Numbered from the stretch's first letter, positions 20,829 to 35,783 are shown. The stretch: DNA of 64,000 bases from an uncultured Clostridia bacterium (GCA_934120675.1 CAKOUU010000004.1:9918-73917), one strand, 5' to 3'. Translations and numbers: made by a program. Notes: a model not told the origin generated them from the sequence alone.

Positions 20829-21071
20829 TTACTTCAAAATCCTCACAGCATATAATGGATTTACTTCTGATACTGCAATTATAAATTGAACTATATTGGA
20901 CGAATCTTCATTATCAGAAACTGAAAAAGTAATCATCTGTGTGAATTCTTTTTCGTTCTTATCTAAAAATAATTTTCTTTTTCCAAAATATTTCTCTGTT
21001 ATTGCAAACATCACTTCTACCATTCCATTATGAACATTTTCTCCATCTCTCCGTAAAATACAAATTTTCAT
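20829..21071 (-). CDS. hypothetical protein
   Basis: 80 aa with RBS GGAGG and a terminator downstream. Contains an in-frame CGG at 21051-21053. Confidence 0.5.
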   Translation of the reverse strand: MKICILRRDGENVHNGMVEVMFAITEKYFGKRKLFLDKNEKEFTQMITFSVSDNEDSSNIVQFIIAVSEVNPLYAVRILK

Positions 21072-21192
21072 CTTAATACCTCCATTTTAGTTAAAACATT
21101 TTGGTTATTTGTTACTACTATTATGTGATATTACACATCTACATATATTATATCAATTTTTATATACTATTTCATTTGTAATTTCTTCCAAA

Positions 21193-22440
21193 TTATATTT
21201 TGTTAAATTTCAAATCTTCTGATTTAGTATCAGTAAATTCTAACATTTCTAATCCTTTAATGACATACTCATTTTTCATAAAATATTTCCATATAGTTTC
21301 ATTTAAATAATTTTCTATCATTAACATTCCTATTCCTTTATCAATTCCTATGTATTCTCTTGCAAACCAGTCTTTTTCTCCTTCTAAATTAAAACCATCT
21401 TTAAAACCGTAGTTTCCCCATAATTTTCTAAATGTATTATAATAATATTCAATAGCTTGTATGCTTTCTTTAGGTGTAAATACTATTGAGCCAATTGCAC
21501 CACATGGAGATATTGTTCCATCGTTTTCTATTTCTAAATTGGTATCACATGGTTCAGCTCCTGGTCCTATATAACCTTTAGGAGAAAGACAAGCAGTTAA
21601 TCCCCAGGAATTTTCTCCATAAGTTTTAAATTTGCTCTTATTATCTATACAATATTCTCTATTTGCTTTTGTCGCTTTTATTGAATTTTCAAACCAATTA
21701 ACTCCATTAATATCTGTTAAATTTCTAAAATCAATCCATGCATGTGAATATTGATATGTAAATAATGTTCCACAATATGTATATATTATATCCTTTATAT
21801 CTTTATAATCTTTCTTTTTTCTATTAAATTCATAATACATACTTTTATCTATTGGATATGTTGGTGAACTAACTCCTAATACATACATCATTAATTGTTC
21901 AGCATATCCATCCCATTGTCCCCAAAATCCTTTTTCAGGTTTATATCCCATATAAAATAAATTGTTTGTTTTGTTTCTATACCAATTCCAATTTATTTTT
22001 TTATATAAGATATATGCTTTATTTTTTACTTCTTTTCCGAAATATTCACCTGCAGTTATAGCACCACATATAAAAATTGCTGTATCTATTATTGATATTT
22101 CACAATTCCATTCTCTTTTCCCTGTTTGCATATTTACAAAATGATAATAAAATCCATTTTTTCCTTCTACGTTATTTATAAAGGTTTCTAGTGTTCTGTT
22201 TACTCTATCATAAGCCTTTTTATATTTTATCCAATTATGTTCTACTCCGATAACTAATGCTGCTAAACCATATCCTACTGATGCTATACTTGCTATATTA
22301 TCAGCTAAAATTGTTTTATCTTTTATTAGTCCATAGCCTTTGCTTTTTTTATCTGTATTTGCTTCTTTAATAAAAAAATTATAGCTTTTCTTTAATTCCT
22401 TATATAATATGTCTTTTCCATATTTTTTTATTGTTCTCAT
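21193..22440 (-). CDS. glucoamylase-family (PF10091-like, GH144-like beta-1,2-glucanase related) glycoside hydrolase
   Basis: 415 aa. An (alpha/alpha)6-type pattern with SIASVGYGLAAL, WNCEISIIDTA, YAEQLMMY and CGAIGSIVF blocks recalls the putative glucoamylase domain. Confidence 0.5.
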   Translation of the reverse strand: MRTIKKYGKDILYKELKKSYNFFIKEANTDKKSKGYGLIKDKTILADNIASIASVGYGLAALVIGVEHNWIKYKKAYDRVNRTLETFINNVEGKNGFYYHFVNMQTGKREWNCEISIIDTAIFICGAITAGEYFGKEVKNKAYILYKKINWNWYRNKTNNLFYMGYKPEKGFWGQWDGYAEQLMMYVLGVSSPTYPIDKSMYYEFNRKKKDYKDIKDIIYTYCGTLFTYQYSHAWIDFRNLTDINGVNWFENSIKATKANREYCIDNKSKFKTYGENSWGLTACLSPKGYIGPGAEPCDTNLEIENDGTISPCGAIGSIVFTPKESIQAIEYYYNTFRKLWGNYGFKDGFNLEGEKDWFAREYIGIDKGIGMLMIENYLNETIWKYFMKNEYVIKGLEMLEFTDTKSEDLKFNKI

Positions 22441-22544
22441 AAATTATTGCACCTCTTAAATAGATTATACATTATTTGGAAGTATATGTTCAACAGGTAT
22501 TTTTTTACAAATTTAACTAAAAATAGATAGCATTTAATTATTTG

Positions 22545-23063
22545 CTATCTATCACTGCTACCATATTTTGCTAACTTGCTACATAGTCTTTTATTAATAA
22601 ATATTTCTATAATACTTAATCCTAATAAAATAAATTCTATTACAATTAGTTCATATCTCATCAATATTAATGTAAAAATAGCACTTAATATTAATGTTCC
22701 TAATCTTCTATAAACTTCAATTTTTATTATAATTTCTTGTTCATTATTTATTTTTGATTCATAATATAAAAATGCCGTTCCTAATACCAATACACAATAT
22801 ATTTTTACACCCTTTGTTTCAAATGTTTTAATCAAATTTTGTAATGAATCGGATATTAAACACGGTTCAATAGTCTCATAAAAAGATTCTGGATTTAGAT
22901 AAGCATTTAAGTAATAATTTAAAAGATTTTCTTCATTTTCATTACGATGTTTTAAATAATCTTTATCTTTATGAATAGCTAGTGTGTCATCAAAATCAAA
23001 AATTGCAACTTTTATACTACTTAAATCTATTTTTTTATTTTCCAATTGTTTCAATTCTTTCAT
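22545..23063 (-). CDS. HAD-like hydrolase N-terminal half fused to an unrelated hydrophobic tail (possibly truncated/chimeric)
   Basis: HAD motif I VAIFDFDDTLA and a cap region are present. After KGVKIYCV the sequence turns into TM-like segments instead of HAD motifs III/IV. Confidence 0.4.
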   Translation of the reverse strand: MKELKQLENKKIDLSSIKVAIFDFDDTLAIHKDKDYLKHRNENEENLLNYYLNAYLNPESFYETIEPCLISDSLQNLIKTFETKGVKIYCVLVLGTAFLYYESKINNEQEIIIKIEVYRRLGTLILSAIFTLILMRYELIVIEFILLGLSIIEIFINKRLCSKLAKYGSSDR

Positions 23064-23102
23064 TTTTTATTTTAATAAAATAATACTTCTACAAATTTTC
23101 AT

Positions 23103-24275
23103 TTATTTTTCCCTTTTTCTTAAATATATCATATAATAAGCTATACTTATTTGGAATATCATAAATAAAGCAGATAATCCAAACATATATCTTAATCCTA
23201 TCTCATACATTATACCACAAAGGAATACACCTATTGCTTCTCCTAAAAACCTTATTATATGGCATATATTTGAAAAACTTAACTGATATTTATTTTCTAA
23301 TCTGTTAATATATACAGCATCACAAATATTTTCATATGCTGTTGAAATAAATATAGACCAAGTAATTGCAATTAATGTAATCATTATACTATTTGATATA
23401 AATGCTATTACATATCCTAAAAATCTTATTCCAAATTTTATTGTTACAGTTAAATAATCATTTTTAGGTGTTAAGTATTTTAATGCTATAATTCCAAAAA
23501 CATCTGCTAGTAGTCCAATAATTAATAAGTAATTAGTCGCTACACTATCACTAAATTGAAAATAATTTGTAAGTGTAAGCATTTTTAGTCCAAGAGCTGT
23601 TGACATTGCAATTGTTCCGATTAGTGTATAAATCAAATACAATATTAAAAGCTTGTCTTTAAAAATATATTTTGATGAAATTTCTTTATATTCTTCTATA
23701 TTAGCAAAATTAGTGACTTTTATATTTAATAATACCAATAACGAAAATAGTAAAAAAATATTTGCTATAAGTAAACATGCATTATAATTTACAAATAATC
23801 CTGCTATACTTTTACCTATAAATACTCCTCCAAATAAAATTCCAATATCTCTAAATAAATATTCTGTTAATCTTCTTTTACTATATATTGTTCCTGTTTT
23901 TACAATAGTTGTTATTAATGGGTAAATACTTGTGATTATTATATATTCTGTTACAATATCTATTATTATTGATAATCTAATTAGTTCTACTGAACTTGTC
24001 CTATTTAAAAAATATAACCAAAACATATTTACTAATTTTACTAATAACACTATTACCAATGTATTTTTTAATCTATCTAGTTTTACGTATTTTCCTATTA
24101 AGCCAATAATTATAACACTTATAAATGTTCCTATACTTAATATATTGCTTATATTAGTAACAGCAAAATTATTATCTTGTAGCCATAGTTGTCTAAAATT
24201 TCCCCATAGTCCAACTGATATACTAAAAAAAGCTAACATTATTAATATTTGATTTTCATTTTTTATTTTTTTCAT
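23103..24275 (-). CDS. MFS-type transporter
   Basis: 390 aa with about 12 predicted TM segments and MFS-like organisation. Confidence 0.6.
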   Translation of the reverse strand: MKKIKNENQILIMLAFFSISVGLWGNFRQLWLQDNNFAVTNISNILSIGTFISVIIIGLIGKYVKLDRLKNTLVIVLLVKLVNMFWLYFLNRTSSVELIRLSIIIDIVTEYIIITSIYPLITTIVKTGTIYSKRRLTEYLFRDIGILFGGVFIGKSIAGLFVNYNACLLIANIFLLFSLLVLLNIKVTNFANIEEYKEISSKYIFKDKLLILYLIYTLIGTIAMSTALGLKMLTLTNYFQFSDSVATNYLLIIGLLADVFGIIALKYLTPKNDYLTVTIKFGIRFLGYVIAFISNSIMITLIAITWSIFISTAYENICDAVYINRLENKYQLSFSNICHIIRFLGEAIGVFLCGIMYEIGLRYMFGLSALFMIFQISIAYYMIYLRKREK

Positions 24276-24278
24276 TTG

Positions 24279-24866
24279 CTACTCCATTTCGTTTATGTAA
24301 TTATATATCTCTTTCCAATTATAAAATGTTTTTATTTCGTTGTTACTATTTTTTTCATTACTAATCATAATTGCTTCAATTCCGCAATTATATACGCATG
24401 AGCAATTACTTATACTATCATCAATTAATAAGTCTATATTATTTTCTACGCATACTTTTGCTTTATCTCTAGCATTAACAATTAATTTATCAAAATATAT
24501 AGAATTTTCATTTAGCCAAGTTTCACTTTGAATATATGGATCTTTATGAAATTCAGAATCTCTTGCAGTTATAATATATATTTCATGACCCTCTTTATGT
24601 AATTTTCTTATTATATCAGCACAATCATTTCTTGGAAGTGCATTGTTAGTAATTTCTTCTTGTATAGTTCCTAAAAAATATTTTAATTCATCATAACTAA
24701 AATCAAATAATTTCTGATATATGTTACCATTATTATATATATCTACTATCTTATGATTCTTATTTTCTACATTTTTATTAAGACTAATTGCATATTCTTT
24801 TGCAGCATTTGTTAATTTGTCTTTTATATCTGTTAAAGTATCATCTATATCTATCCCTATTCTCAT
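24279..24866 (-). CDS. HAD-superfamily NT5C-like (5'(3')-deoxyribonucleotidase family) phosphatase, copy 3
   Basis: MRIGIDIDDTLT (DxDxT), KLHKEGHEIYIITAR, IDLLIDDS, NWKEIY. Paralogous to 30822-31415 and to the N-terminus of 26786-28219. Confidence 0.65.
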   Translation of the reverse strand: MRIGIDIDDTLTDIKDKLTNAAKEYAISLNKNVENKNHKIVDIYNNGNIYQKLFDFSYDELKYFLGTIQEEITNNALPRNDCADIIRKLHKEGHEIYIITARDSEFHKDPYIQSETWLNENSIYFDKLIVNARDKAKVCVENNIDLLIDDSISNCSCVYNCGIEAIMISNEKNSNNEIKTFYNWKEIYNYINEME

Positions 24867-24986
24867 TTATTTACTCCTAATTTTTATATTTCAAATGCAT
24901 ATCCATCTTCTACAACTAAGACATTATTTATCTCATCACTCTTCAATTTTTCTCTAGTTTTATCTCTCAAATGAATGGCAATGATT

Positions 24987-26156
24987 TTATTTCATTTCCA
25001 TATTAATTTTATTTTTTTCAATTATATACTGTGTAGATACTAGTTGATATATAACTGAAACTGCTAGTCCAATTGATGTGCAAAATGGAGATGATATAAA
25101 AGAACAAAAAATTCTAATTATATTGGCAATTTGTTTACTGATAGTTGCTTTTACAGCAGAATGTTCAAGTTGTATGTATGTTAATTTTGTTAAATAAATT
25201 GGATACATATATAAACTTACCAATTCTATACTTACTATGATTGATGTTGCCATTATATCTACCTTATAACTTGGATATAATATAATACCCATTATAATAC
25301 TTGATATAATTAACAAATATACTAATTTTCTACTATTTTTTATATGTTCTTTATATGAAAATTCTTTTTTAGTAATATCAATTTGTGCTACTGTTTTTAT
25401 TGCATAAGCAATATCCCATTGAGTATCTGTTATTAAAGTTGCAAATGATGTTGCTAAAATATATTTTTCACCAAAATCAAATGAATTTTTAAAACCAAAC
25501 AAATAAATTATAAACATACTAATTTCCGCAAACAAATATACAGAATCATATTTAATACAATTTACTATATTAATTTTAAATTTTGTTTTTTCTACTATTC
25601 TAAACATCATAATAACAACAAAAATACTCATACATATTACTGAAATTCCAACAATTTTTATTTGTTCTTTTGTTATTAAACTCATTATAATTAATGAAGA
25701 AAAATTTATTAAATTGAATAGCAAACTATATTTGTTAGCTCTTTTATTTTCTTCTTCAAAATACAACTTACACAAAGATAAATTTAATAATAATTGAAAA
25801 AACATTTGAATAACAGCATATACTCCAAATATTTTATATGTATCAATATCCATGTTCATAAAAGTTATATATTTATCTATGTTTATTGCAACGCATCCTA
25901 GTATTATCAATCCTATACCAGAACCCAATACCACCCCAGAAAAAACACTATTTTTATTTTTATCTCTAATTGAACTTATATTAGCACCTGTTCCAAAAAC
26001 ACTTTGTATTGCACTTACAACAAATTGCATCGGATATATTAATGAAAATATATTGATTAAATTTTTATCCACTAATATTCCAAGTAAAAACCATCCTAAA
26101 ATTGGAGTTACAGATGTTAAAAATGTATCAAAACCTATTCTTAATAATCTATTCAT
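24987..26156 (-). CDS. polytopic membrane protein, MOP/MATE-flippase-like
   Basis: 389 aa with 10-12 TM helices. Family assignment is tentative. Confidence 0.45.
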   Translation of the reverse strand: MNRLLRIGFDTFLTSVTPILGWFLLGILVDKNLINIFSLIYPMQFVVSAIQSVFGTGANISSIRDKNKNSVFSGVVLGSGIGLIILGCVAINIDKYITFMNMDIDTYKIFGVYAVIQMFFQLLLNLSLCKLYFEEENKRANKYSLLFNLINFSSLIIMSLITKEQIKIVGISVICMSIFVVIMMFRIVEKTKFKINIVNCIKYDSVYLFAEISMFIIYLFGFKNSFDFGEKYILATSFATLITDTQWDIAYAIKTVAQIDITKKEFSYKEHIKNSRKLVYLLIISSIIMGIILYPSYKVDIMATSIIVSIELVSLYMYPIYLTKLTYIQLEHSAVKATISKQIANIIRIFCSFISSPFCTSIGLAVSVIYQLVSTQYIIEKNKINMEMK

Positions 26157-26173
26157 TTTATTTCTCCAATTTA

Positions 26174-26782
26174 CTATAAATTATTCTTTATTTCTGGAAA
26201 TAAATCATAAAGATTATATCCTAATAAACTGTCAAAATATTCTTTTAATTTCATAGTTTGTTCTATGTGATAATGTGTTTTAGCAAATACGCCATGTCTT
26301 AGTAATAAATCTATCATTCTTTTTTCAACAGTTAATGTTTTAGTTGTACACATTAAATCACAAAGGCTTATTATTTTTTCTTCCAAACTATATTCATTCT
26401 TTATATATTCTTTCACAAAATTATAATGTATATTAGATTTGTCTGTTTCATTTCTATCATTTGATATGCAGTCTATATCATTATTTAAAAAAGAATGTTT
26501 AATACAAATTCCTGCGTATTCTTCATCATACCCAAGACTTTTTATATAGTTATAACCATTTATAGCATGAGGAAATACTCCTCCATGCTCATTAAATTTT
26601 TTTCCTATATCATGAATATAACCAAATGATATTACCTTATCAATATCTACATTTATGCCTTTATCTTTTAATGCCTTTGCGATTTTACCTGCACTATTTC
26701 CTACACATATGCAATGGTCAATCCATCTATTATTTCTCTCTTTTTCTAATAAATTTCTTGCTTCTTCACTTGTTAATTTCAT
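26174..26782 (-). CDS. HD-domain phosphohydrolase
   Basis: 202 aa with an H...HD signature (HCICV...YIHDIGK...H). Confidence 0.65.
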   Translation of the reverse strand: MKLTSEEARNLLEKERNNRWIDHCICVGNSAGKIAKALKDKGINVDIDKVISFGYIHDIGKKFNEHGGVFPHAINGYNYIKSLGYDEEYAGICIKHSFLNNDIDCISNDRNETDKSNIHYNFVKEYIKNEYSLEEKIISLCDLMCTTKTLTVEKRMIDLLLRHGVFAKTHYHIEQTMKLKEYFDSLLGYNLYDLFPEIKNNL

Positions 26783-26785
26783 AAA

Positions 26786-28219
26786 TCATTCTCCTAGTTT
26801 CTTAAATAAATTTTCATATATTTTATCTCTATCTAATTTAGTAACAAAAGTAATAATATGTCTATTATCAGTCAATTCGTAAGAACTATCTTCTCTGATA
26901 TTAGGACAACTTATTTCTTTTGTATTAAACCAATTTTTATTTATCATATATGCTATTACTGATATATCCCAAATCACTCTTGTTTCTTGCGCACCATGAT
27001 ATCCATCATTATAAAATCTTTCAATTAAATAATTGCACAATTTTGATTTATTTTCCAAATTATTTTTTAAAGTATTTATATCTATTTTCAAGTCTGATAC
27101 AACATTTTTGCATGGTAATATAGTCATTTTTACTTTTGAATTGAATACTATTTTTACTGCTTCAATATCCTGTTTAAAATTATATTCAAGATTATCTTTA
27201 TATCCTAGTTCATTTCCACCTAACCATATAACTTCTATTTTATCAATTATTTTAGGTTCTTTCTTAATTGCTAAAGCAACATTTGTAATTGCTCCAATTG
27301 CTAAAATATATGTCTTTTTATTTTTACTTGCAATTTCTATAATTTTATTTACAGCGTCATTAGTTTCATCATATCCATTTTGTATATACTCCATTGAACC
27401 TTTAAATACTTTATTATTTATGTTAAAATTTAACCATTTGCATATTTTTAAAATTTCGTTATAACTTAATTCTTGTCCTTCTCTTACTGACACATTTCTT
27501 GATTTATGTGAATATGGTGCTACTGTAATTGCTTCAATATTAAATTTATCTTGATTTTTCAATAAATACGCTAGTGCAAATTGGTCATCACATTCATTAT
27601 ATGTGTCTGTATCTAATATTACATTTACTTTTTCTTTTTTATAATTTGTAATAAATTCATAAATTTCTTTCCAATTGTAAATTCTTGTTATTTCTGTTGC
27701 ATATCTATTAGACGGCTTGTCCATTATAAGTGTAGTAATATTTTTTTGAAAACATTCTCTACAAATTCTGGCTGAATCATCTATCATTACATCAATGTCA
27801 TTTTCTAAACATTTTTCTGCCTTACCTTGTTTTCCATTTTTATATCCGTTTGTGAATATTAATTTATCATATACTATTCCTTTTTCTTTTAGCCATTTTT
27901 TTGTTATAGTATATGGATCTTTATATTCTCCATTATCTCTACCTGTAATAATTACTATTGTATGTCCATCTTTTTTTAGTTTTTCAATATATTCTTTTGC
28001 ACCTTCAATTATATCTAGACTAGGAGTTATTCTTCCTATATTTTCTAAATAAAATGTCCATATTTCATCATCAGTCCAGTCAAACATTCCTTTTGTCATA
28101 TATGCTTCTGGGTTAATTATTCCTGTATTTCTTAGTTCTTTGTCATGTATTAAAAATTCTTTTTTTAATACTTCATCAAAGTTTGATATTACATTATCTA
28201 TATCTATTCCTATGTTCAT
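26786..28219 (-). CDS. fusion of an NT5C-like HAD phosphatase with an inosine-uridine-preferring nucleoside hydrolase domain
   Basis: The N-terminal 190 aa are paralogous to the other NT5C-like copies (MNIGIDIDNV, KDGHTIVIITGR, IDVMIDDS, NWKEIY). The C-terminal domain has the ILDTDTYNECDDQFAL (DxDxxxDD) and AIGAITNVALA motifs of the IUNH family. Confidence 0.7.
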   Translation of the reverse strand: MNIGIDIDNVISNFDEVLKKEFLIHDKELRNTGIINPEAYMTKGMFDWTDDEIWTFYLENIGRITPSLDIIEGAKEYIEKLKKDGHTIVIITGRDNGEYKDPYTITKKWLKEKGIVYDKLIFTNGYKNGKQGKAEKCLENDIDVMIDDSARICRECFQKNITTLIMDKPSNRYATEITRIYNWKEIYEFITNYKKEKVNVILDTDTYNECDDQFALAYLLKNQDKFNIEAITVAPYSHKSRNVSVREGQELSYNEILKICKWLNFNINNKVFKGSMEYIQNGYDETNDAVNKIIEIASKNKKTYILAIGAITNVALAIKKEPKIIDKIEVIWLGGNELGYKDNLEYNFKQDIEAVKIVFNSKVKMTILPCKNVVSDLKIDINTLKNNLENKSKLCNYLIERFYNDGYHGAQETRVIWDISVIAYMINKNWFNTKEISCPNIREDSSYELTDNRHIITFVTKLDRDKIYENLFKKLGE

Positions 28220-28223
28220 ATTC

Positions 28224-29030
28224 TTAACTCCCTGTACTTCTATATTTATTTAGTGCCCAATTCCAAACTTTAATAGCAATTATCCATAAGATTACCATTA
28301 TAATTGGAGATAAATAAATCATATATTTATCCATTCCTAAATAATTCATCGTTGGATGATATGCAACAAACGCAAATGGTAAAACTACTGTTATTAGTAG
28401 TTTAATAAATCCGTTATATATATCAATTGGATATTGTGCAAATGTATGTATTCTGTAAAATGTCCATATTACTTCATTAGACTTATATGTCCAAAATGAT
28501 GCAATACTAAATATAGTTAATATAGCTCCAATAATTGCAGCCCCAATAATACTAAATACAACTATTTTTAAAACAAGGAAAAATGTAATTGGAATAGATA
28601 ACTCTATTAACATTTTTATTGCTATAAATAATCCTAATCCAAAATATCCAATAGCTGTAAAACTTTTTGAACTCCCTATTATTGAAATTAGTGGATGAAC
28701 TGGTCTTAATAAGATTTTATCAAATTCTCCATCTCTAATGTATTTTGGTCCTATATCATATAATGAATCAAAACATAAGTCCAGAATTCCAATTGATATC
28801 AATGTTGTACCATATAATAAAAGTACTTGTTTAAAGTTCCAGCCTGCAAGATTTTCTGTATTTTGAAATGTAATCCAAATAAATATAACTTCTACTGCTT
28901 GAGTAACTATTTGTGAAATCATACCGGTTAAACAATCTATTCTATATATTAGTAGTTCTTTTAAAGATGCTACGAAAAATGATAAGTACAATTTAATATT
29001 GTCAAATACTCTTCTCATTTTATCCTCCAT
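28224..29030 (-). CDS. ABC-2 family transporter permease
   Basis: 268 aa, 6 TM helices, overlaps the upstream permease gene. Confidence 0.6.
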   Translation of the reverse strand: MEDKMRRVFDNIKLYLSFFVASLKELLIYRIDCLTGMISQIVTQAVEVIFIWITFQNTENLAGWNFKQVLLLYGTTLISIGILDLCFDSLYDIGPKYIRDGEFDKILLRPVHPLISIIGSSKSFTAIGYFGLGLFIAIKMLIELSIPITFFLVLKIVVFSIIGAAIIGAILTIFSIASFWTYKSNEVIWTFYRIHTFAQYPIDIYNGFIKLLITVVLPFAFVAYHPTMNYLGMDKYMIYLSPIIMVILWIIAIKVWNWALNKYRSTGS

Positions 29031-29811
29031 TTATTGTTATTTTCTTTACTGAATATTTAAAAAATGCTTTTGATATTGCATATAAAATCAATGACCATAA
29101 TATTAATTTTAATATTATAAATCCTATTTCATTCAAAGGAATATTTCCTAAATAAATATTTATAGGAGTATATATAAATTCTTTAAATGGAAGTATATTT
29201 GCAATTTTTTGAAACCATTCAGGAAATAATGTAAGTGGTGCAATTAATCCTGAAAAAATTGATATAATTGATTGCCTTAAAATTTGCATTCCCCATATTG
29301 AGTTCGTATAAAAGCCAATTGTTCCAACTATCATTTGTATAAAAAATGATATTGGAAGTATAAGTATTATTACAAATATAAATAATAAAAAATTTATAAA
29401 ACTTACAGGAAGTTGTACACTCCAAAAAAATGAACATATTATAAATGTTGCTATTGAGATTGGAATTGCATATCCAATTTCTCCCATATATAATCCAAAA
29501 CAATATTTAAAATATGATATTGGACTTAATAATTCTTTATTTAATTGACCTTTTCTAATTGACTCTGCAATATCTTCATTTATTCCCCACGTTGCTATTG
29601 CTTTTATCGAAATAACTAAAATATAATATGTAACCATATATTCTATACTATATCCACCTGCATTACCTGTTTGATAATATATTGCTTGCCATACAAAAAT
29701 ATAAACAACAACTTCTACTATTCTATTTAATGTCCATAAAAAGAAATTGGATTTATAAATAGAATATTGTTTAAAATGTACTCGTGCTAATGCTAACCAT
29801 GTTTCTAACAT
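29020..29811 (-). CDS. ABC-2 family transporter permease
   Basis: 263 aa, 6 TM helices, overlaps the ATPase gene by 7 nt. Confidence 0.6.
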   Translation of the reverse strand: MLETWLALARVHFKQYSIYKSNFFLWTLNRIVEVVVYIFVWQAIYYQTGNAGGYSIEYMVTYYILVISIKAIATWGINEDIAESIRKGQLNKELLSPISYFKYCFGLYMGEIGYAIPISIATFIICSFFWSVQLPVSFINFLLFIFVIILILPISFFIQMIVGTIGFYTNSIWGMQILRQSIISIFSGLIAPLTLFPEWFQKIANILPFKEFIYTPINIYLGNIPLNEIGFIILKLILWSLILYAISKAFFKYSVKKITINGG

Positions 29812-30803
29812 ATTTTTACTCCTCTATATATTTCTTTTAATATATCTTCTAATTCTGCTTCTTTCATATGAATATCTACTATATCTCCATATTTTGAAAT
29901 CATCTCGACTATTTTTACAATTGTCATTTTATCATGGTCAAATTTTATTTTTATGCTTTCTTCGTTTTCTTCTACAATTTCAAAGTCTTCATCATATAAA
30001 CTTTCAGTTATACTCGCTTTTTTATTTTTTAAAATGATTTCAGCTGAAACACTATTTCCATATGTATCTTTGAATTTTTGTTTTTCTCCATCAAAGATTA
30101 TTTGACCTTTATCTAATAGTATTATTCTGTCACATACATCTTCAATGTCCTTTAAATCATGTGTTGTAAGTATTACTGTTGTATTTTTTTCTTTATTTAT
30201 ATCTTTAATAAATTTTCTAATATTCTCTTTTACTAAAACATCCAGTCCAATTGTTGGTTCATCTAAATAAACTATTTTAGGATTATGCAAAAATGTTGCT
30301 GCAATTTCACATCTCATTTTTTGTCCTAAACTTAGGTTCTTAACTTGTTTTTCTAGTAAATCTTCTAATTGTAATAATTCAGTAAATTGTTTTAAATTTT
30401 TTCTGTATTCATTTTCTGGAATTTTATACATCTTTTTAATTAATCTAAAAGATTCAATTACAGGCAAATCCCACCATAGCTGTGTTTTTTGTCCAAAAAC
30501 AGCACCTATATTTTTGTTATTTTCTATTCTTTTTTCATTTGGCACAATTCCATTTACTACAACTTGTCCAGATGTTGGTGATAACAGACCTGTGAGCATT
30601 TTTATTGTTGTTGATTTTCCTGCTCCATTTTCTCCTATGTAGCCTACTAATTCACCTTCGTTAATATTAAAATTTATATTATTTACTGCTGTAAATTCTT
30701 TATATTTTGGTTTAATTAGATTTTTTAAGTAACCTAATAATCCATCTTCTTTTTCTATAATTTTATAGTTTTTTACTAAATCTTTTACTTCTATTAATGA
30801 CAT
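29805..30803 (-). CDS. ABC transporter ATP-binding protein
   Basis: Walker A GENGAGKST, signature LSLGQKMR and Walker B IVYLDEPT, plus a C-terminal extension. Confidence 0.85.
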   Translation of the reverse strand: MSLIEVKDLVKNYKIIEKEDGLLGYLKNLIKPKYKEFTAVNNINFNINEGELVGYIGENGAGKSTTIKMLTGLLSPTSGQVVVNGIVPNEKRIENNKNIGAVFGQKTQLWWDLPVIESFRLIKKMYKIPENEYRKNLKQFTELLQLEDLLEKQVKNLSLGQKMRCEIAATFLHNPKIVYLDEPTIGLDVLVKENIRKFIKDINKEKNTTVILTTHDLKDIEDVCDRIILLDKGQIIFDGEKQKFKDTYGNSVSAEIILKNKKASITESLYDEDFEIVEENEESIKIKFDHDKMTIVKIVEMISKYGDIVDIHMKEAELEDILKEIYRGVKIC

Positions 30804-30821
30804 TATTTTCTCTTCTCCATT

Positions 30822-31415
30822 TTAGAATATTTCTTTTATTTTTCTATATATATCATACCAACTATAACATCTATAAATATTTTTTCCATTACATTGTTCA
30901 TTATAATTTGCATGATAGCAAATTACAGGTATTTCATTAGAAATTGTATTTATATTTTTAGGCTTATCTTCAATCATTAAATCTATATTATTTTGTTTGC
31001 ATATTTCCAATTTATCTTCTGGACTAAAGATTATATTGTCATAATGTATTTGATTAATTTTTAGCCAATTTAATACAATATTTCTATTTTCTTCTATTGT
31101 CATTACATCTGCTGAATGGCTTAAAAAAGAACCTCTAGCCGTAATTATATAAATTTCATGTCCATCTTCTTTTAATTTATCAATTACTTCATTTGCAAAT
31201 TTTCTTGCTTCTACATTAATTGAATACTCTCGAAAATATTTATTCCAAAATTCATCATCTAATTTTATATCTACATCAAATATTTCATTTGTTTCATATC
31301 CCTTGTAATTCTTTATTTTTAAACCATATTTTTCATAAAAAAACTTACTTCCATAGTCTAACTGCCATTGTTCTACATCAGTTAAAACTCCATCTATATC
31401 AATTCCTATTTTCAT
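30822..31415 (-). CDS. HAD-superfamily NT5C-like phosphatase, copy 1
   Basis: MKIGIDIDGVLT, KLKEDGHEIYIITAR, IDLMIEDK. RBS AGGAGG. Confidence 0.65.
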   Translation of the reverse strand: MKIGIDIDGVLTDVEQWQLDYGSKFFYEKYGLKIKNYKGYETNEIFDVDIKLDDEFWNKYFREYSINVEARKFANEVIDKLKEDGHEIYIITARGSFLSHSADVMTIEENRNIVLNWLKINQIHYDNIIFSPEDKLEICKQNNIDLMIEDKPKNINTISNEIPVICYHANYNEQCNGKNIYRCYSWYDIYRKIKEIF

Positions 31416-31563
31416 TATTTTACCTCCTAATATTTCTGTATTTCTTAATTTTGTTTTATCTTATCATAAATACAATATTATTACAATAAATCAAACTAAT
31501 AAAATTAATATCTATCTTGTAAAGTCTTAAATTATTCAAAACAATTCTCCTTAAAATAATTTC

Positions 31564-31587
31564 GAGCAAAGGTTTTCACCTTTGCTC
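31564..31587. terminator. hairpin terminator
   Basis: Perfect 10-bp stem gagcaaaggt / acctttgctc with a 4-nt loop. T5 follows on the plus side and a weaker tail on the minus side. Confidence 0.55.
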
Positions 31588-31592
31588 TTTTT

Positions 31593-31661
31593 ATACCCTA
31601 CTTTAGGCTAGGGGTTTCCTCTTCAATATACCCTACTTATAGGCTAGGGATTTCCTTTTCA
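31593..31661. repeat. tandem direct repeat, two ~34-bp units (period 35)
   Basis: The two units are ataccctactttaggctaggggtttcctcttca and ataccctacttataggctagggatttccttttca. Each contains a CCCTA...TAGGG mini-palindrome. Confidence 0.85.
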
Positions 31662-31758
31662 TAATATTTTGCAATATTACTTCCTTTAGTATATTCATTA
31701 TACTAATTTTTTATTACTTTTGTCAAACGAATTATCGCTTTTTGATAGTTTAAATTTA

Positions 31759-32001
31759 TTAATATAATTCATTTGCTTCTGTTTGATTTATTAAATTTTG
31801 GCTTAAACTATAATCTATTTGATTTTTTCTTTCAACATCATTTTCTATACTTTTTATATGATTTATTAATTGTGCATGTCCATCTTCAATTTTTCCATTT
31901 TCATTAAATAGATATGAAGTTGATATTTTAAAGATACCAAATCCAATTGCAACTATAATAATTATTGCAATTGCAATTATTACATTCTTTCTATTCTTCA
32001 T
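31759..32001 (-). CDS. small membrane-anchored hypothetical protein
   Basis: 80 aa, N-terminal TM helix, overlaps the upstream ORF by 11 nt. Confidence 0.5.
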   Translation of the reverse strand: MKNRKNVIIAIAIIIIVAIGFGIFKISTSYLFNENGKIEDGHAQLINHIKSIENDVERKNQIDYSLSQNLINQTEANELY

Positions 32002-32269
32002 TTGTTTTCCCCCTCTCTCTTGATTTTATCAATTGTTCATTAAGTTTTTTTATTGTATTTTTTGTCTTCAAGTACATAATAATAGAAATAATAACATATA
32101 TAATTGTGAAGAACAATAAATTATTTTTAATAGATTCTATAAATAAATTCAAAAAATCTGTATTATATTCACATATTTTTAGAATAATCATTTCTGTTAA
32201 ACTAAATATGCAATTAAATATAAAATAATTTATTATAAAAAATACCATAACATTAAAAATTTTTTTCAT
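31991..32269 (-). CDS. small multi-TM protein (DUF3021-like partner of LytTR regulators)
   Basis: 92 aa, 2-3 TM helices, starts 2 nt after the LytTR gene stop. Confidence 0.5.
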   Translation of the reverse strand: MKKIFNVMVFFIINYFIFNCIFSLTEMIILKICEYNTDFLNLFIESIKNNLLFFTIIYVIISIIMYLKTKNTIKKLNEQLIKSRERGKTNEE

Positions 32270-32270
32270 A

Positions 32271-32729
32271 TTACAAACTCTTATCCTCCAAAAAATTTAA
32301 TACATCTTTAATTCTTCTTCTCGAAACCTTTTCTTCTGTATCATCATATAATTTTACTATTATTTTTCCTGTTTTACTCATATCAAAGCATTTTACAAAA
32401 TTGACATTAACTATACATTTTTTCGATATTCTAATAAAACTATCATCTATGTTTTCTATTTCATATAATTTACTTCTTATTTTGTATGTTTTATTATCAA
32501 CTGTTTTACAGTAATTATTTTTTCCATTACTATAAAATAGAATAATATTTTTATAATCTATATAAAACGATTTATAGTCTTCTGTAACTACAACCTTGTT
32601 TGTTTTGTAATTAGCTATATAATCAAAAATTTTTTCTGTTTCTTTATTTTTTGAATTTGCTTCAATTATAATATTTATCTCATTGCTCTTAATATTTGTA
32701 TTTATTTTTTCTGATATTCTTATTCCCAT
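32271..32729 (-). CDS. LytTR-family DNA-binding protein without a receiver domain
   Basis: 152 aa. FYIDYKNIILFYSNGKNNYCKT...YKIRSKLYEIE...FIRISKKCIVNVNFV matches the LytTR domain pattern. Confidence 0.7.
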   Translation of the reverse strand: MGIRISEKINTNIKSNEINIIIEANSKNKETEKIFDYIANYKTNKVVVTEDYKSFYIDYKNIILFYSNGKNNYCKTVDNKTYKIRSKLYEIENIDDSFIRISKKCIVNVNFVKCFDMSKTGKIIVKLYDDTEEKVSRRRIKDVLNFLEDKSL

Positions 32730-32820
32730 TTTTTCCTTTCTCCATGTTTGAATTATATATCTAAAAATTTTTTATATCAATACTTAAACGATAAACGGTT
32801 GTTTTTTTAGATAATTGGTT

Positions 32821-33483
32821 TTATATTATCCTTCCATCCTCTATTTTTATAATTCTATCTGCCAATTTGGCTATTTCTAAATTATGTGTAATCATAATAA
32901 TAGTTTGTTTATAGTCTTTATTTGCCTTTTTTAAAACCTGCATAATTTCCTCACTTGATTTTGAATCTAAATTTCCTGTTGGTTCATCTGCTAAAATTAT
33001 TGTTGGATTTATCATTAATGCTCTTCCTATTGCAACTTTTTGCTGTTGCCCACCTGATAGTTCATTTGGCAAATGTTTTTTTCTTTTTTCTAGTCCTAAA
33101 AATTTTATTATTTCATCTAATTTTTTGGTATCTATCTTTTTTCTGTCTAACTCTATTGGTAATGTTATATTTTCTTCCACATTCAAAGTTGGAATCAAGT
33201 TATAAAATTGATATATTATTCCTATTTTTTGTCTTCGCAAAATAGTAAGTTCTTTTTTACTCATTTTATATATATCTTTATCATAAAAATACACTTTTCC
33301 ACTTGTTGGCTTTTCTAGTCCTGCAATTGAATGTAACAATGTTGATTTTCCGCTTCCAGAAGGTCCTATTATAGCAATAAATTCTCCTTCTTCTACTTGA
33401 AAAGAAATGTCGTCTAATGCTTTAACTTCTGTTTCTCCACTCCCATATACTTTCTTTAAATTTTCTATTTTTAAAATATTCAT
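32821..33483 (-). CDS. ABC transporter ATP-binding protein (MacB/FtsE-like)
   Basis: Walker A GPSGSGKST, signature LSGGQQQKV and Walker B ILADEPTGNLD. Confidence 0.85.
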   Translation of the reverse strand: MNILKIENLKKVYGSGETEVKALDDISFQVEEGEFIAIIGPSGSGKSTLLHSIAGLEKPTSGKVYFYDKDIYKMSKKELTILRRQKIGIIYQFYNLIPTLNVEENITLPIELDRKKIDTKKLDEIIKFLGLEKRKKHLPNELSGGQQQKVAIGRALMINPTIILADEPTGNLDSKSSEEIMQVLKKANKDYKQTIIMITHNLEIAKLADRIIKIEDGRII

Positions 33484-35783
33484 TGTTCCCTCCTATAATT
33501 TTGCCACTTCTTTATAAAATTTGTTGCATACTTAAATATCATTAAGGATATACTAAATAATCCCATAATAAATAAATTTATTTTTCCAAATGGTACTAAT
33601 AATTTATTTTCAATAATAATATTTTGCATATACTTTATAATCATATATATAATAGGAATCGATAACACTATTGTTATCATTAATGCTTTAAGAAACATAT
33701 ATATACATTCAAACATTAATATTTTATTTATATTTTCCTCTGTTGCTCCGACAATATTTAAAACTATAAATTCTTGTTTTCTTTCGCATATACTTGCATT
33801 TATAATATTAATTGTGCTAATTATACCAATTATAATTATCGAAATTACAATAATATTTAATATTAATTGAACTATTTCTATATAAATTATTTTTTCTTGA
33901 TTTTCTAATGAATAATATTCTGCATCAATACCTATATTTTGTTTTTTTACTATATTATCAATATAACTTGAAAAATTCATAATATTTTTGCATTTTACTT
34001 TTATCAATATTTCATCCAAATCACTTACAATCCAATTTTCAACTTCATATCCTTCAGTATCATTATAATCAGAATTTATTTTTTGAATATTATTATAGTT
34101 TTCCATATTAGTAAAAATAATTGGTGCAAGATACTTAAATTGCAATTCTTTAAATCCTTTTATATTTTCATTTGTAATAATATAATTTCCATTCAATTTT
34201 CCATTATTTATTTTCTTATATTGATTAACTTCATTTTCTTCATCATTCAATACTGATATAAGATTTAAATCAAAATTAATACCTGTTTTTAATACATCAT
34301 AATTTGTATATACTAAATCTCGTCCTTCCAAAATTTCAGTAGCCTTGTTATAAATTATATAATCCCCATATTGAGCATTCAGTTTTTTTATATAATTATT
34401 ATATGTTTCATCATCTAAGCCAACAATAACCATATGCATACTTTGTTTTCCATCATTATATGTTGTAACATTATCCGTCAAAAGTGCCTGTTTAGGTTCT
34501 ACCAATACATTTATTCCTGTGAGTTTATATTCCGTATATTCAATTTTATCTCCTGTATTATTTTCATAGTCTTTCAATATTTTTTTGTAATTAATGTTTT
34601 GTGTTGAATCTATGGATAACTTAGCATCTGAATCATATTCATTTATTAGTTTAGCACTTTCTTTTTCATATTGAATATATGTATTTATTGTAATATATGA
34701 TAGCATACATATTACTAATAGCATTATTATAATTGAATATTTATTTTTATTTCTTTTTACATTCTTTATTGCTACTTTTCCTTCTATTGGTAATATTCGT
34801 TCTATAATTGTATTCTTTCTATGTTTTATTTGTTTATTATTTCTAATACCTTGAATAACTGATGTTGTACTTGCTTTTATACTTGGTATTATAGATGATA
34901 TAAAAATATTAAATATAATAATTCCTAGAGATAATATTATGTATCTTATATTTAATATCAATCTGAAATTATACCCTGTATTTTTTAATATATTATTCAA
35001 TAATTTCAAAATCACATTAGAACTAAAAATTGATATTATTCCTCCTATAAAAATACCTATTGCTCCCATTATTATGCCTTCAAATAATATCATTTTTAAT
35101 ATTTGTCCTTCTGTTCCTCCTATACTGTTTAAAACTGCATACTCCTTTTTTCTCTCATTTATAGTTATCAAAAAAGCATTATATAATATTATTATAAATA
35201 AAATTGATATTGCTGCAAAAATAATTATAATCATTAATTCAATAGCATATGAATAATTAATTCTTGCTATACATTTAGGTATATAGTTTTCTGTTTCGAT
35301 TTCAACATCAATAATCCCATATATAGTTAGTAGTTTTTGATTAAATTCGCATTTATTTTTAGAATTTTCAATTTCACCAGTTGATATATTTAATGTTTGT
35401 AATATATCGTTTGAATACTTGCAAACATCTTTCACATTTTTATATCTAATATATATATTTAAATTTTTTTCATTATCTTTCATGACATAATTTTTATCTA
35501 CTTCTGTCAGTTCTGTATCATTTATTTTTTGAATATATATTTTTTCAATATATTCCTTATTTTTTATTTTTTCAAAATCTTTATTGCTTAAATCTTTAAG
35601 TATTACATGATAATCATTTTTTTCTTTTTCTGAAATCTCTATAATTCCGTTTTTGATACTACTAACTAGAATTGTTGTAGTAAATATCAATATTGAACAT
35701 AACATTATAGATATAATTGTAAATAATGTTCTTTTTATATTGCTTTTTAAATTATTTAATGTTAGCTTTAGTTCTGTTTTCAT
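33480..35783 (-). CDS. FtsX-like ABC transporter permease (two FtsX modules with a large extracytoplasmic domain)
   Basis: ~767 aa from ATG 35783 (RBS GGGGGAG). Two 4-TM FtsX-type modules flank Asn/Lys-rich loops. Overlaps the ATPase gene by 4 nt. Confidence 0.7.
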   Translation of the reverse strand: MKTELKLTLNNLKSNIKRTLFTIISIMLCSILIFTTTILVSSIKNGIIEISEKEKNDYHVILKDLSNKDFEKIKNKEYIEKIYIQKINDTELTEVDKNYVMKDNEKNLNIYIRYKNVKDVCKYSNDILQTLNISTGEIENSKNKCEFNQKLLTIYGIIDVEIETENYIPKCIARINYSYAIELMIIIIFAAISILFIIILYNAFLITINERKKEYAVLNSIGGTEGQILKMILFEGIIMGAIGIFIGGIISIFSSNVILKLLNNILKNTGYNFRLILNIRYIILSLGIIIFNIFISSIIPSIKASTTSVIQGIRNNKQIKHRKNTIIERILPIEGKVAIKNVKRNKNKYSIIIMLLVICMLSYITINTYIQYEKESAKLINEYDSDAKLSIDSTQNINYKKILKDYENNTGDKIEYTEYKLTGINVLVEPKQALLTDNVTTYNDGKQSMHMVIVGLDDETYNNYIKKLNAQYGDYIIYNKATEILEGRDLVYTNYDVLKTGINFDLNLISVLNDEENEVNQYKKINNGKLNGNYIITNENIKGFKELQFKYLAPIIFTNMENYNNIQKINSDYNDTEGYEVENWIVSDLDEILIKVKCKNIMNFSSYIDNIVKKQNIGIDAEYYSLENQEKIIYIEIVQLILNIIVISIIIIGIISTINIINASICERKQEFIVLNIVGATEENINKILMFECIYMFLKALMITIVLSIPIIYMIIKYMQNIIIENKLLVPFGKINLFIMGLFSISLMIFKYATNFIKKWQNYRREQ

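What the first reader, a model, noticed from the sequence alone, without database searches (positions are those of the whole stretch)
22545..31415. Eleven-gene array combining three NT5C-like phosphatases, an NT5C::nucleoside-hydrolase fusion, an HD hydrolase and three unrelated transporters
The genes are co-directional and tightly packed, with gaps of 3-39 nt or overlaps and one 120-nt gap. In order they are NT5C-like HAD, ABC ATPase, two ABC-2 permeases, a fusion of NT5C-like HAD with an IUNH nucleoside hydrolase, HD phosphohydrolase, a MOP/MATE-like membrane protein, NT5C-like HAD, an MFS transporter and a truncated HAD. The three NT5C-like sequences are clear paralogues (IGIDID..., GHxIxIITxR, IDxxIDD, NWKEIY). 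The fusion would convert a (deoxy)nucleoside monophosphate to base plus sugar in one polypeptide. I do not recognise this as a described pathway. Possibilities are salvage or detoxification of modified or analogue nucleotides with export, uptake and degradation of extracellular nucleotides, or nucleotide-pool depletion of the kind used in phage defence.
Basis: inference. Interest (0 to 1): 0.65.

Follow-up and report, generated by a model that had tools for sequence, protein, structure and literature searches.

The report
Swappable nucleotide-hydrolase and exporter gene array
An uncultured low-GC gut bacterium carries a strain-variable row of small phosphatase and transporter genes around a conserved, sometimes mobile module (nucleotidase::nucleoside-hydrolase fusion, HD hydrolase, second nucleotidase, drug-pump-like exporter) that most likely dismantles and expels unwanted nucleotide-like compounds, though no function has been tested.

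Summary
The genes are real, but there are ten ORFs, not eleven. Family calls hold for three NT5C-like HAD paralogues, the NT5C::nucleoside-hydrolase fusion, the HD hydrolase and the ABC-2 transporter. The 389-aa protein has a MOP/MATE fold. The 390-aa protein is only weakly linked to MFS.

The array is not one conserved pathway. Across 73 related loci only fusion+HD is well conserved (HD within four genes in 46 of 68). Strains with the identical fusion protein have different gene sets.

It breaks into four modules:
- A core of HAD1, fusion, HD and MOP exporter. The same four orthologues are cargo of an integrative mobilisable element elsewhere.
- A three-gene ABC-2 cassette inserted into that core. 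Its relatives ride Tn4451-like elements.
- A conserved NT5C-HAD plus MFS-like pair.
- A deletion chimera left from a fourth HAD+MFS pair (the "truncated HAD").

"Phosphohydrolase then transporter" pairs recur: 42 of 91 transporter genes against an 18% background.

My best reading (about 0.45) is accessory cassettes that dephosphorylate, dismantle and expel unwanted nucleotide-like compounds. Nutrient scavenging and "no common role" remain possible. Nothing supports phage defence. This is a new variant of known kinds, of moderate interest.

The parts
31697..31726 (-). Promoter-like site P1: TTGACA-18-TATAAT, 12 of 12 consensus positions
   Evidence: It lies just after the stop codon of the upstream 80-aa ORF.
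31564..31661 (-). Leader with two ~35-nt repeats, each holding a CCCTA...TAGGG mini-hairpin, followed by a 10-bp GC-rich terminator-like hairpin (31587-31564)
   Evidence: fold z-score -2.6. No Rfam match at E<=1. Found only in the same species plus L001.
31458..31486 (-). Conserved array promoter P2: TTGTAA-17-TAAGAT with TG upstream of the -10 hexamer, about 45 nt before the HAD1 start codon
   Evidence: The ~90-nt segment recurs in other species upstream of different first genes: HAD1, His-phosphatase/YgjV, GNAT_C, the ABC-2 ATPase and the fusion.
30822..31415 (-). HAD1: NT5C-like HAD phosphatase, 197 aa, motif I DIDGV at residues 5-9, so no signal peptide
   Evidence: Pfam NT5C 8e-11, 42.5 bits against a cut-off of 24.8. 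Its orthologue (71% identity) is part of the IME cargo operon in L041-L043.
29805..30803 (-). ABC-2 cassette gene 1: DrrA-like ABC ATPase, 332 aa
   Evidence: ABC_tran 3e-30. TIGR01188 drrA 222 bits, below the 312-bit cut-off.
29020..29811 (-). ABC-2 cassette gene 2: permease, 263 aa
   Evidence: ABC2_membrane_6 2.9e-21.
28224..29030 (-). ABC-2 cassette gene 3: permease, 268 aa. The whole three-gene cassette is absent from sister strains, where about 12 nt separate HAD1 from the fusion.
   Evidence: ABC2_membrane_6 2.7e-42. Insertion junctions. Relatives at 64-82% identity sit next to TnpV, Mob_Pre and a large serine recombinase.
26786..28219 (-). Fusion protein, 477 aa: NT5C-like HAD domain (residues 1-192) plus IUNH-type nucleoside hydrolase domain (residues 200-466)
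   Evidence: Pfam. Best PDB hits are IUNH enzymes, E down to 7.6e-12. D203, D205, D211, D212, T312, N313, N347, W417 and D418 are invariant in 21 homologues. More than 5,000 database relatives.
26174..26782 (-). HD/HDIG phosphohydrolase, 202 aa, starting 3 nt after the fusion gene
   Evidence: Pfam HD 2e-7 and TIGR00277 HDIG. H23, H57-D58, H72, H96 and D142 are conserved in 34 homologues. Lies within 4 genes downstream of the fusion in 46 of 68 loci.
24987..26156 (-). MOP-superfamily (MATE/MurJ/Wzx-fold) membrane protein, 389 aa
   Evidence: AF2 pLDDT 88.8 and pTM 0.88. Foldseek against PDB gave 40 hits at E<=1e-3, all MATE, MurJ or Wzx.
24867..24986 (-). 120-nt spacer that is a recombination scar. 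It holds a relic of the 3' end of a metallo-beta-lactamase-fold gene. In sister strains a 2H-phosphoesterase gene is inserted here.
   Evidence: Short MBL tblastn hits at this position.
24279..24866 (-). HAD3: NT5C-like HAD paralogue, 195 aa, first gene of a two-gene module with the next gene
   Evidence: 35% identity to the fusion N-domain, E 6e-29. Only weak generic HAD hits in Pfam. An NT5C-like gene directly precedes 6 of 8 homologues of the 390-aa protein.
23103..24275 (-). 390-aa polytopic membrane protein, probably MFS-like
   Evidence: About 12-14 hydrophobic segments. No Pfam or PDB hit. hhalign links it to cluster c3 at 70% probability over the full length. c3 links to Pfam-MFS_1 clusters at 88-93%.
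22545..23063 (-). Deletion chimera (pseudogene-like): N-terminus of a 174-aa HAD joined in frame to two pieces of a 410-aa MFS-like gene
   Evidence: BLASTP against the intact genes of L080. Intact pairs are seen in L002, L003, L004 and L080.

Best explanation
The region is a strain-variable accessory array, probably one operon driven by a conserved promoter. It is built from four independent modules rather than one pathway.

1. Core module: HAD1, fusion, HD and MOP exporter.
2. A mobile three-gene ABC-2 exporter cassette inserted between HAD1 and the fusion.
3. An NT5C-like HAD plus MFS-like transporter pair.
4. The wreck of a fourth HAD+MFS pair.

Inferred mechanism for the core:
- The HD enzyme trims a phosphorylated nucleotide-type compound (NTP, NDP or a phosphodiester) to a monophosphate.
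- The NT5C-type domains remove the last phosphate.
- The fused Ca2+-type nucleoside hydrolase domain cleaves the riboside. Its Trp-Asp signature suggests purine-type ribosides.
- The MOP pump expels the uncharged product.

The other phosphatase-transporter pairs would do the same 'dephosphorylate, then expel' job for other trapped phosphorylated compounds. This is a housecleaning or antimetabolite-resistance role.

Shown: gene families, active-site conservation, modularity, mobility and pairing statistics. Inferred: substrates, direction of transport, co-transcription and the physiological role.
For: - Families and intact catalytic motifs.
- The fusion-HD link is conserved: 46 of 68 loci within four genes, 23 of 68 adjacent.
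- The two fusion halves also occur as neighbouring genes.
- The same four orthologues form the cargo operon of an IME with tyrosine integrase, Mob_Pre relaxase, AAA_25 and an XRE regulator in L042/L043. Identities: fusion 67%, HD 75%, HAD1 71%, MOP 50%.
- Relatives of the ABC-2 cassette sit next to TnpV, Mob_Pre or serine-recombinase genes in at least 6 loci, plus a DUF6076 gene in a seventh.
- At least six architectures exist among strains with 88-100% identical fusion proteins. Cassettes are cut and joined at RBS-bearing spacers.
- 42 of 91 transporter genes have a phosphohydrolase gene directly upstream, against an 18% background. Specific pairs recur.
- Two of the three transporters are exporter types: a MOP fold, and ABC-2 with no binding-protein gene.
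- All the hydrolases start with their catalytic motif, so they are cytoplasmic.
- Neighbours in relatives include GNATs, an NT5C::GNAT fusion, and MccF-like S66, C15 and C26 peptidases. These are typical small-molecule-modifying or immunity-type enzymes.
- There is a precedent for 'dephosphorylate then efflux': SgrS/YigL in E. coli (bioRxiv 10.1101/221978).
- No terminator-like site lies inside the array, and the promoter is conserved.
Against: - No substrate, transport direction or transcript has been measured.
- The NT5C family is best known for deoxyribonucleotides, while IUNH enzymes need ribose hydroxyls. The two-step channel therefore requires ribonucleotide activity that is not shown.
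- The Asp cluster is DTDTYNECDD, two residues longer than the canonical DxDxxxDD. NH-like domains without nucleosidase activity are known, for example Sde_0182 and XopQ (PMC8910321).
- MFS proteins can import.
- The pairing statistic uses related, non-independent loci that were chosen around the fusion gene.
- Mobile cargo can also be a nutritional trait.
- The host lineage probably has a small genome (contigs up to 1.44 Mb carry the HD gene). That would make salvage needs plausible.
Confidence: 0.45

Rival explanations
1. Nutritional scavenging. The transporters import nucleotides or other organophosphates from the gut lumen. MFS proteins might do this as organophosphate:phosphate antiporters. 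The cytoplasmic phosphatases and the nucleoside hydrolase then release phosphate, bases and ribose for a small-genome auxotroph.
For: The lineage is made up of uncultured gut MAGs, and contigs suggest genomes of about 1.1-1.4 Mb. Salvage-type neighbours occur in relatives: CinA-C/PncC-like, YgjV, His_Phos_1 and Peptidase_C26. The fusion would yield base plus ribose, the usual inputs for phosphoribosyltransferase salvage.
Against: The MOP fold and binding-protein-less ABC-2 systems are exporter types. Strain-level presence or absence, and carriage on IMEs and Tn4451-like elements, are unusual for core salvage. Destroying imported NMPs down to the base wastes the nucleotide. GNAT and MccF-like neighbours do not fit this role.
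Confidence: 0.25
2. No common role. Only fusion+HD (perhaps with HAD1 and the MOP protein) work together. The other genes are unrelated accessory cassettes that pile up at a recombination hotspot behind a strong promoter.
For: Co-occurrence of the other genes with the fusion is low: 2-13 of 73 loci. The neighbour census is very mixed, including SDR, a two-component system and an HMUDK-like gene. A scar and a chimera show ongoing decay. 86% of genes lie on one strand anyway.
Against: Specific phosphatase-to-transporter pairs recur across species with diverged sequences. Examples are NT5C-to-390-aa protein in 6 of 8 cases, and CofHAD-to-c3 7 times. Phosphohydrolases are far over-represented.
Confidence: 0.2
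3. Anti-phage defence. Infection-triggered destruction of the nucleotide pool or of phage-specific modified nucleotides.
For: The module is mobile and strain-variable, as defence genes often are. Nucleotide-depleting defences exist (own knowledge). An Apyc1-like MBL and 2H phosphoesterases occur in sister strains.
Against: No PADLOC family matches beyond generic ABC-ATPase and Cas3-HD similarity. No known defence genes were found among the neighbours examined. No sensor or trigger component is present. Exporters have no place in such a system. The fusion is not found in phage records.
Confidence: 0.05

Closest known systems
5'(3')-deoxyribonucleotidases of the NT5C family (human cdN/mdN; phage and Bacillus YorS-type proteins), Pfam PF06941
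   Same: HAD fold with a DxDxV motif I at the extreme N-terminus. HAD1 and the fusion N-domain score above the Pfam gathering threshold.
   Different: There are three paralogues in one array. One is fused to a nucleoside hydrolase, and in a related species one is fused to a GNAT. Each is paired with transporters. Substrate preference is unknown, and fusion to a riboside hydrolase argues for ribo- rather than deoxyribonucleotides.
Ca2+-dependent nucleoside N-ribohydrolases (IU-NH, IAG-NH, RihA/B/C), Pfam PF01156
   Same: Full-length Pfam match (4.6e-27). The Asp cluster, the T-N motif, the E-x-N motif and the last Ca2+-binding Asp are conserved. Trp precedes that Asp, as in group II purine-specific enzymes (PMC8910321).
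   Different: The Asp cluster carries two extra residues (DTDTYNECDD). The domain is N-terminally fused to a phosphatase. Two reviews of the family (PMC8910321, PMC10526354) mention no nucleotidase fusion.
Dephosphorylate-and-efflux stress relief (E. coli SgrS-YigL sugar-phosphate stress response; 'inducer expulsion' in Gram-positives)
   Same: The logic is the same: a cytoplasmic HAD phosphatase frees a trapped phosphorylated compound so that it can leave the cell (inducer expulsion from own knowledge).
   Different: Here the phosphatase and transporter genes are hard-wired as adjacent pairs. The phosphatases are nucleotidase-like, and a glycosidic-bond hydrolase is added. Nothing has been shown experimentally.
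Cargo operons of integrative mobilisable elements and Tn4451/Tn4453-type mobilisable transposons
   Same: Relatives of the core module and of the ABC-2 cassette lie next to integrase or serine recombinase, Mob_Pre relaxase and TnpV genes.
   Different: In the window the modules are chromosomal with no recombinase alongside. They appear to be exchanged by recombination at short RBS-bearing spacers and between paralogues.
DrrAB-type ABC-2 exporters
   Same: One ATPase with best NCBIfam similarity to DrrA, plus two ABC-2 permeases and no substrate-binding protein.
   Different: The score is below the DrrA family cut-off (222 against 312 bits). The permeases belong to the uncharacterised ABC2_membrane_6 family. 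The substrate is unknown.

Membership tests
NT5C (PF06941) 5'(3')-nucleotidases | Sequence match above the Pfam gathering score | tested here: met
   HAD1 scores 42.5 bits and the fusion N-domain 52.9 bits, against a cut-off of 24.8. HAD3 does not reach it alone but is 35% identical to the fusion N-domain.
NT5C (PF06941) 5'(3')-nucleotidases | HAD motifs I-IV with the DxDxV/T nucleophile motif | tested here: met
   Motif I is DIDGV, DIDNV and DIDDT in the three proteins. All three have IIT(A/G)R and (D/E)D motifs. D6, D8, N9, R94 and D148 are invariant or nearly so in 21 fusion homologues.
NT5C (PF06941) 5'(3')-nucleotidases | Nucleoside monophosphate phosphatase activity | not testable with these tools
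   Needs an enzyme assay.
IUNH nucleoside hydrolases (PF01156) | Sequence match above the Pfam gathering score over the whole domain | tested here: met
   95.9 bits against a cut-off of 34.2, covering residues 200-466 and profile positions 1-294 of 297.
IUNH nucleoside hydrolases (PF01156) | N-terminal DxDxxxDD Ca2+/ribose-binding Asp cluster | tested here: inconclusive
   The sequence is DTDTYNECDD. All four Asp residues are invariant (D203, D205, D211, D212), but the spacing is two residues longer than canonical.
IUNH nucleoside hydrolases (PF01156) | Last Ca2+-ligand Asp preceded by the leaving-group residue (His in group I, Trp in group II, Cys in group III) | tested here: met
   W417-D418 are invariant and align with His241-Asp242 of the Leishmania and Crithidia enzymes. 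Group definition from PMC8910321. This points to group II.
HD-domain phosphohydrolases (PF01966) | H...HD...D metal-binding motif | tested here: met
   H23, H57-D58 and D142, plus H72 and H96, are conserved in 34 homologues. Pfam HD scores 31.7 bits against a cut-off of 22. No specific subfamily was reached: TIGR00295 gave 58 bits against 172, and PDB hits were E>=0.002.
ABC-2 type exporters | ABC ATPase plus ABC-2 permeases, with no substrate-binding protein gene | tested here: met
   No binding-protein ORF lies in or next to the cassette.
MOP superfamily (MATE/MurJ/Wzx) | MOP fold: two bundles of transmembrane helices as in MATE, MurJ and Wzx structures | tested here: met
   AF2 pLDDT 88.8. 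Foldseek probability 1.00, with TM-score 0.54-0.72 (normalised to the query) among the hits at E<=1e-3 and 0.78 for one weaker hit, to MATE, MurJ and WzxE structures. There is no sequence-level Pfam or PDB match.
Major facilitator superfamily | Sequence or fold match to MFS for the 390-aa protein | tested here: inconclusive
   No Pfam hit in six homologues. The AF2 model is unusable at pLDDT 43. Only a transitive hhalign link exists: 70% to c3, then 88-93% to clusters with Pfam MFS_1 hits.
Known anti-phage defence systems (PADLOC-DB 2.0) | Match of any array protein to a defence-system model beyond generic domains | tested here: not met
   Only ABC-ATPase look-alikes and weak Cas3-HD similarity were found.
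Integron gene-cassette arrays | attC sites after each cassette and an adjacent intI integrase | tested here: not met
   Intergenic gaps are 3-39 nt, too short for attC. No integrase ORF flanks the array in the window.

The most novel reading that the evidence does not exclude
The array is one instance of an undescribed resistance principle in gut Firmicutes/Bacilli. It would consist of exchangeable 'phosphatase plus exporter' cassettes that disarm phosphorylated antimetabolites, such as nucleotide-analogue toxins or processed Trojan-horse peptidyl-nucleotide antibiotics made by competitors. The cassettes would strip the phosphate, and in the core module also the base, and pump the remains out. 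The NT5C::nucleoside-hydrolase fusion plus HD enzyme would be the conserved, horizontally mobile heart of the system.
Probability: 0.25. Interest if true: 0.7.

Novelty: new variant of a known kind. Interest (0 to 1): 0.45.

Why it matters
The fusion and its HD partner form a large uncharacterised protein pair. More than 5,000 and more than 2,600 database relatives passed E<=0.001 among the candidates scored. The pair is confined largely to uncultured, low-GC human and animal gut bacteria.

If the dephosphorylate-dismantle-expel reading is right, these cassettes would be a common and mobile way for gut commensals to tolerate nucleotide-like toxins. They might also affect tolerance to nucleoside-analogue drugs that reach the gut. 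If the salvage reading is right, they instead show how small-genome gut bacteria feed on nucleotides. In either case the fusion is a clean, testable enzyme target, and the paired gene design suggests substrates for orphan MFS and MOP transporters.

Tried and rejected
The organism's nucleotide biosynthesis capacity therefore could not be checked.
- Rfam at E<=1 over 21000-33000 found nothing, so there is no riboswitch clue to a ligand.
- PDB profile searches for the two unannotated membrane proteins found nothing.
- The AlphaFold model of the 390-aa protein was unusable. I ran no fold search on it.
- Direct hhalign of the 390-aa family against Pfam-positive MFS clusters, and of the 389-aa family against the weakly Polysacc_synt-like cluster, was not significant.
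- The HD protein could not be assigned to a characterised subfamily. The best PDB hits were an oxetanocin-like HD protein (E 0.002) and YqeK Ap4A hydrolase (E 0.06). Database homologues carry no informative names.
- PADLOC and a phage tblastn gave no support for defence or phage origin.
- The integron idea was rejected: there is no room for attC sites and no integrase.
- Literature searches found no description of a nucleotidase::nucleoside-hydrolase fusion. The library is incomplete, so this is weak evidence of novelty.

Full report
**Observation**

The window is about 24% G+C and almost all of its genes lie on the minus strand. Between 22545 and 31415 there are ten ORFs, not eleven. The gaps, in order, are 18, -7, -11, 4, 3, 17, 120, 3 and 39 nt.

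Pfam and NCBIfam give the following:
- HAD1: NT5C, 8e-11.
- ATPase: DrrA-like ABC ATPase.
- Two permeases: ABC2_membrane_6.
- Fusion: NT5C (5.5e-14, residues 3-192) plus IU_nuc_hydro (4.6e-27, residues 200-466).
- HD gene: HD/HDIG protein.
- HAD3: weak generic HAD hits only.
- The 389-aa, 390-aa and 172-aa ORFs: no hits.

HAD1, the fusion N-domain and HAD3 are full-length paralogues at 31-35% identity.

**The unannotated proteins**

- *389-aa protein.* Its AlphaFold model (13-sequence alignment, pLDDT 88.8) matches MATE, MurJ and WzxE structures, with 40 hits at E<=1e-3 and TM about 0.6-0.78. "MOP/MATE-like" is therefore right at the fold level.
- *390-aa protein.* It has about 12-14 hydrophobic segments. 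It has no Pfam or PDB match, and its model failed at pLDDT 43. A profile-profile chain links it to MFS: 70% to neighbour family c3, which scores 88-93% to two families with Pfam MFS_1 hits. I read it as probably MFS, not proven.
- *172-aa "truncated HAD".* This is a chimera. Residues 1-91 are about 95% identical (88 of 98 over the aligned stretch) to the start of a 174-aa HAD. Residues 91-110 and 108-168 match residues 177-196 and 344-404 of a 410-aa MFS-like protein. Both genes are intact and adjacent in sister strains.

**Is the array a conserved unit?**

It is not. A genome-collection scan found the fusion in 79 loci of uncultured gut MAGs, labelled Clostridium sp. CAG:575, 28_17, "uncultured Bacilli", "Tenericutes" and similar. 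I clustered all ORFs of these loci.

Among 73 full-length fusion genes:

| Feature near the fusion gene | Loci |
|---|---|
| HD gene immediately next | 23 of 68 |
| HD gene within four genes downstream | 46 of 68 |
| NT5C paralogue within four genes | 13 of 73 |
| MOP protein within four genes | 12 of 73 |
| 390-aa protein within four genes | 4 of 73 |
| ABC-2 permeases within four genes | 2 of 73 |

86% of all genes in these loci share one strand, so co-direction is not evidence of a unit.

Contigs that encode the identical fusion protein have different architectures. One strain type equals the window. Another differs as follows:
- It lacks the ABC-2 cassette.
- It has a second HD gene, an Apyc1-like MBL hydrolase, an MFS gene and an 84-aa ORF between the fusion and the window-type HD.
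- It has a 2H phosphoesterase before HAD3.
- It keeps the intact 174-aa HAD and 410-aa MFS pair.

Strains at 88-92% fusion identity add GNAT, GNAT_C, Cof-type HAD, S66 peptidase, YgjV and others.

DNA comparison shows flanks at 98-99% identity with clean cassette-sized indels. The junctions lie in short RBS-bearing spacers or between paralogues. The 120-nt gap is one such scar and holds a relic of the MBL gene's 3' end.

**Modules**

1. *Core.* In L041-L043 the operon is fusion (67% identical), HD (75%), HAD1 orthologue (71%) and MOP protein (about 50%). In L042/L043 an XRE regulator precedes it. There it is cargo of an integrative mobilisable element with tyrosine integrase, Mob_Pre relaxase and an AAA_25 protein. 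In the window species the same four genes are HAD1, fusion, HD and MOP.
2. *ABC-2 cassette.* It is inserted precisely between HAD1 and the fusion. A metagenome scan with its second permease found 50 loci. Close relatives keep the island context. Those at 64-82% identity often sit beside TnpV, Mob_Pre, a large serine recombinase or DUF6076, a Tn4451-like layout, in at least 7 loci.
3. *HAD3 plus the 390-aa protein.* An NT5C-like gene directly precedes 6 of 8 homologues of the 390-aa protein, even where the HAD is only 56-60% identical.
4. *Remnant.* This is what is left of the 174-aa HAD plus 410-aa MFS pair.

More generally, 42 of 91 transporter genes in these loci have a phosphohydrolase gene directly upstream, against an 18% background. 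Recurrent pairs are Cof-HAD to c3 (7), NT5C to 390-aa protein (6), HD to MOP (5) and HADc12 to c7 (4). The loci are related and were chosen around the fusion, so this number is indicative and not a formal test.

**Enzyme details**

- All the HADs and the HD protein start directly with catalytic or helical sequence, so they are cytoplasmic.
- In the hydrolase domain D203, D205, D211, D212, T312-N313, N347 and W417-D418 are invariant in 21 homologues down to 50% identity.
- Alignment to Leishmania and Crithidia IU-NH places E345 and N347 on Glu166 and Asn168, and W417-D418 on His241-Asp242.
- A Trp before the last Ca2+-binding Asp defines structural group II, the purine-specific IAG-NH type (PMC8910321).
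- The Asp cluster is two residues longer than canonical, and that review lists NH-like domains with no nucleosidase activity. Activity is therefore likely but not certain.
- IUNH enzymes act on ribosides (own knowledge). The fused phosphatase should therefore handle ribonucleotides, despite the "deoxy" label of its Pfam family.
- The HD family keeps H23, H57-D58, H72, H96 and D142 but fits no characterised subfamily.
- In one abundant species the gene after fusion-HD is an NT5C::GNAT fusion.

**Regulation**

- A perfect consensus promoter lies at 31726-31697.
- Two hairpin repeats and a terminator-like hairpin at 31587-31564 follow it.
- Next comes a ~90-nt segment with a TTGTAA-17-TAAGAT promoter at 31486-31458. 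This segment is conserved across species upstream of different first genes of such arrays.
- No terminator-like site lies inside the array.

A single transcription unit is therefore plausible but unproven. Rfam found nothing.

**Interpretation**

The exporter-type transporters, cytoplasmic phosphatases, strain-level turnover, carriage on mobile elements and GNAT/MccF-like neighbours fit one idea best. In that idea the cassettes dephosphorylate, and in the core further dismantle, unwanted phosphorylated nucleotide-like compounds so that they can be expelled. This is analogous to the YigL-dependent dephosphorylation and efflux of sugars in E. coli. I give this reading about 0.45.

| Reading | Confidence | Main point |
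|---|---|---|
| Dephosphorylate, dismantle and expel | 0.45 | See above |
| Nutrient scavenging | 0.25 | Fits the small-genome lineage and some salvage-like neighbours |
| No shared role beyond the core | 0.20 | Low co-occurrence, mixed neighbours, ongoing decay |
| Phage defence | 0.05 | No support from PADLOC or phage records |

**Earlier notes from this scan**

Earlier notes on other genomes describe the same fusion-HD module, once on an IME. I treated them as leads and reproduced the IME context and the chimera independently.

**Limits**

- No biochemical data exist.

Noticed in passing
window 31564-31726 (minus strand): A 12/12 consensus promoter is followed by two ~35-nt repeats with CCCTA...TAGGG mini-hairpins and a strong terminator-like hairpin. 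All of this lies upstream of the conserved array promoter. It could be a small RNA gene or a protein-dependent attenuator. There is no Rfam match, and it is seen only in this species and in L001.
   Followed up: partly
L080 12110-12832 and 16628-17134 (sister strain of the window organism): Sister strains carry two further genes in the same array that the window lacks: an MBL-fold hydrolase hitting Pfam Anti-Pycsar_Apyc1, and a 2H phosphoesterase. Both folds are used by phages to destroy cyclic-nucleotide signals. Here they sit chromosomally, each before a transporter or a HAD gene.
   Followed up: partly
L139-L142 7618-8676 (L138 7618-8391 is a truncated version): An NT5C::GNAT fusion (352 aa) lies directly after fusion-HD in an abundant gut species with a 1.44-Mb contig. 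This implies a substrate with both a phosphate and an amino group.
   Followed up: no
L119 159-7878; L117 144-6237: Small Tn4451-like mobilisable elements carry the ABC-2 three-gene set as cargo. L119 has a large serine recombinase, a Mob_Pre relaxase and TnpV, with a GNAT gene next to TnpV. L117 has a Mob_Pre relaxase, a DUF6076 protein and a Fic-HTH protein.
   Followed up: partly
L071 9000-9959 and cluster c47 (4 loci): A gene with a very strong match to the 5-hmdU DNA kinase helical domain (PF18723, 7e-107) lies directly next to the fusion gene in L071 and within a few genes of it in the other three loci. This hints at a link with modified-nucleotide metabolism.
   Followed up: no
window 32271-35819: Directly upstream of the array are a receiver-less LytTR protein and a BceAB-like FtsX/ABC pair. 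In other species a response regulator, a histidine kinase and MFS genes occupy the same upstream position. These could be regulators of the array.
   Followed up: no
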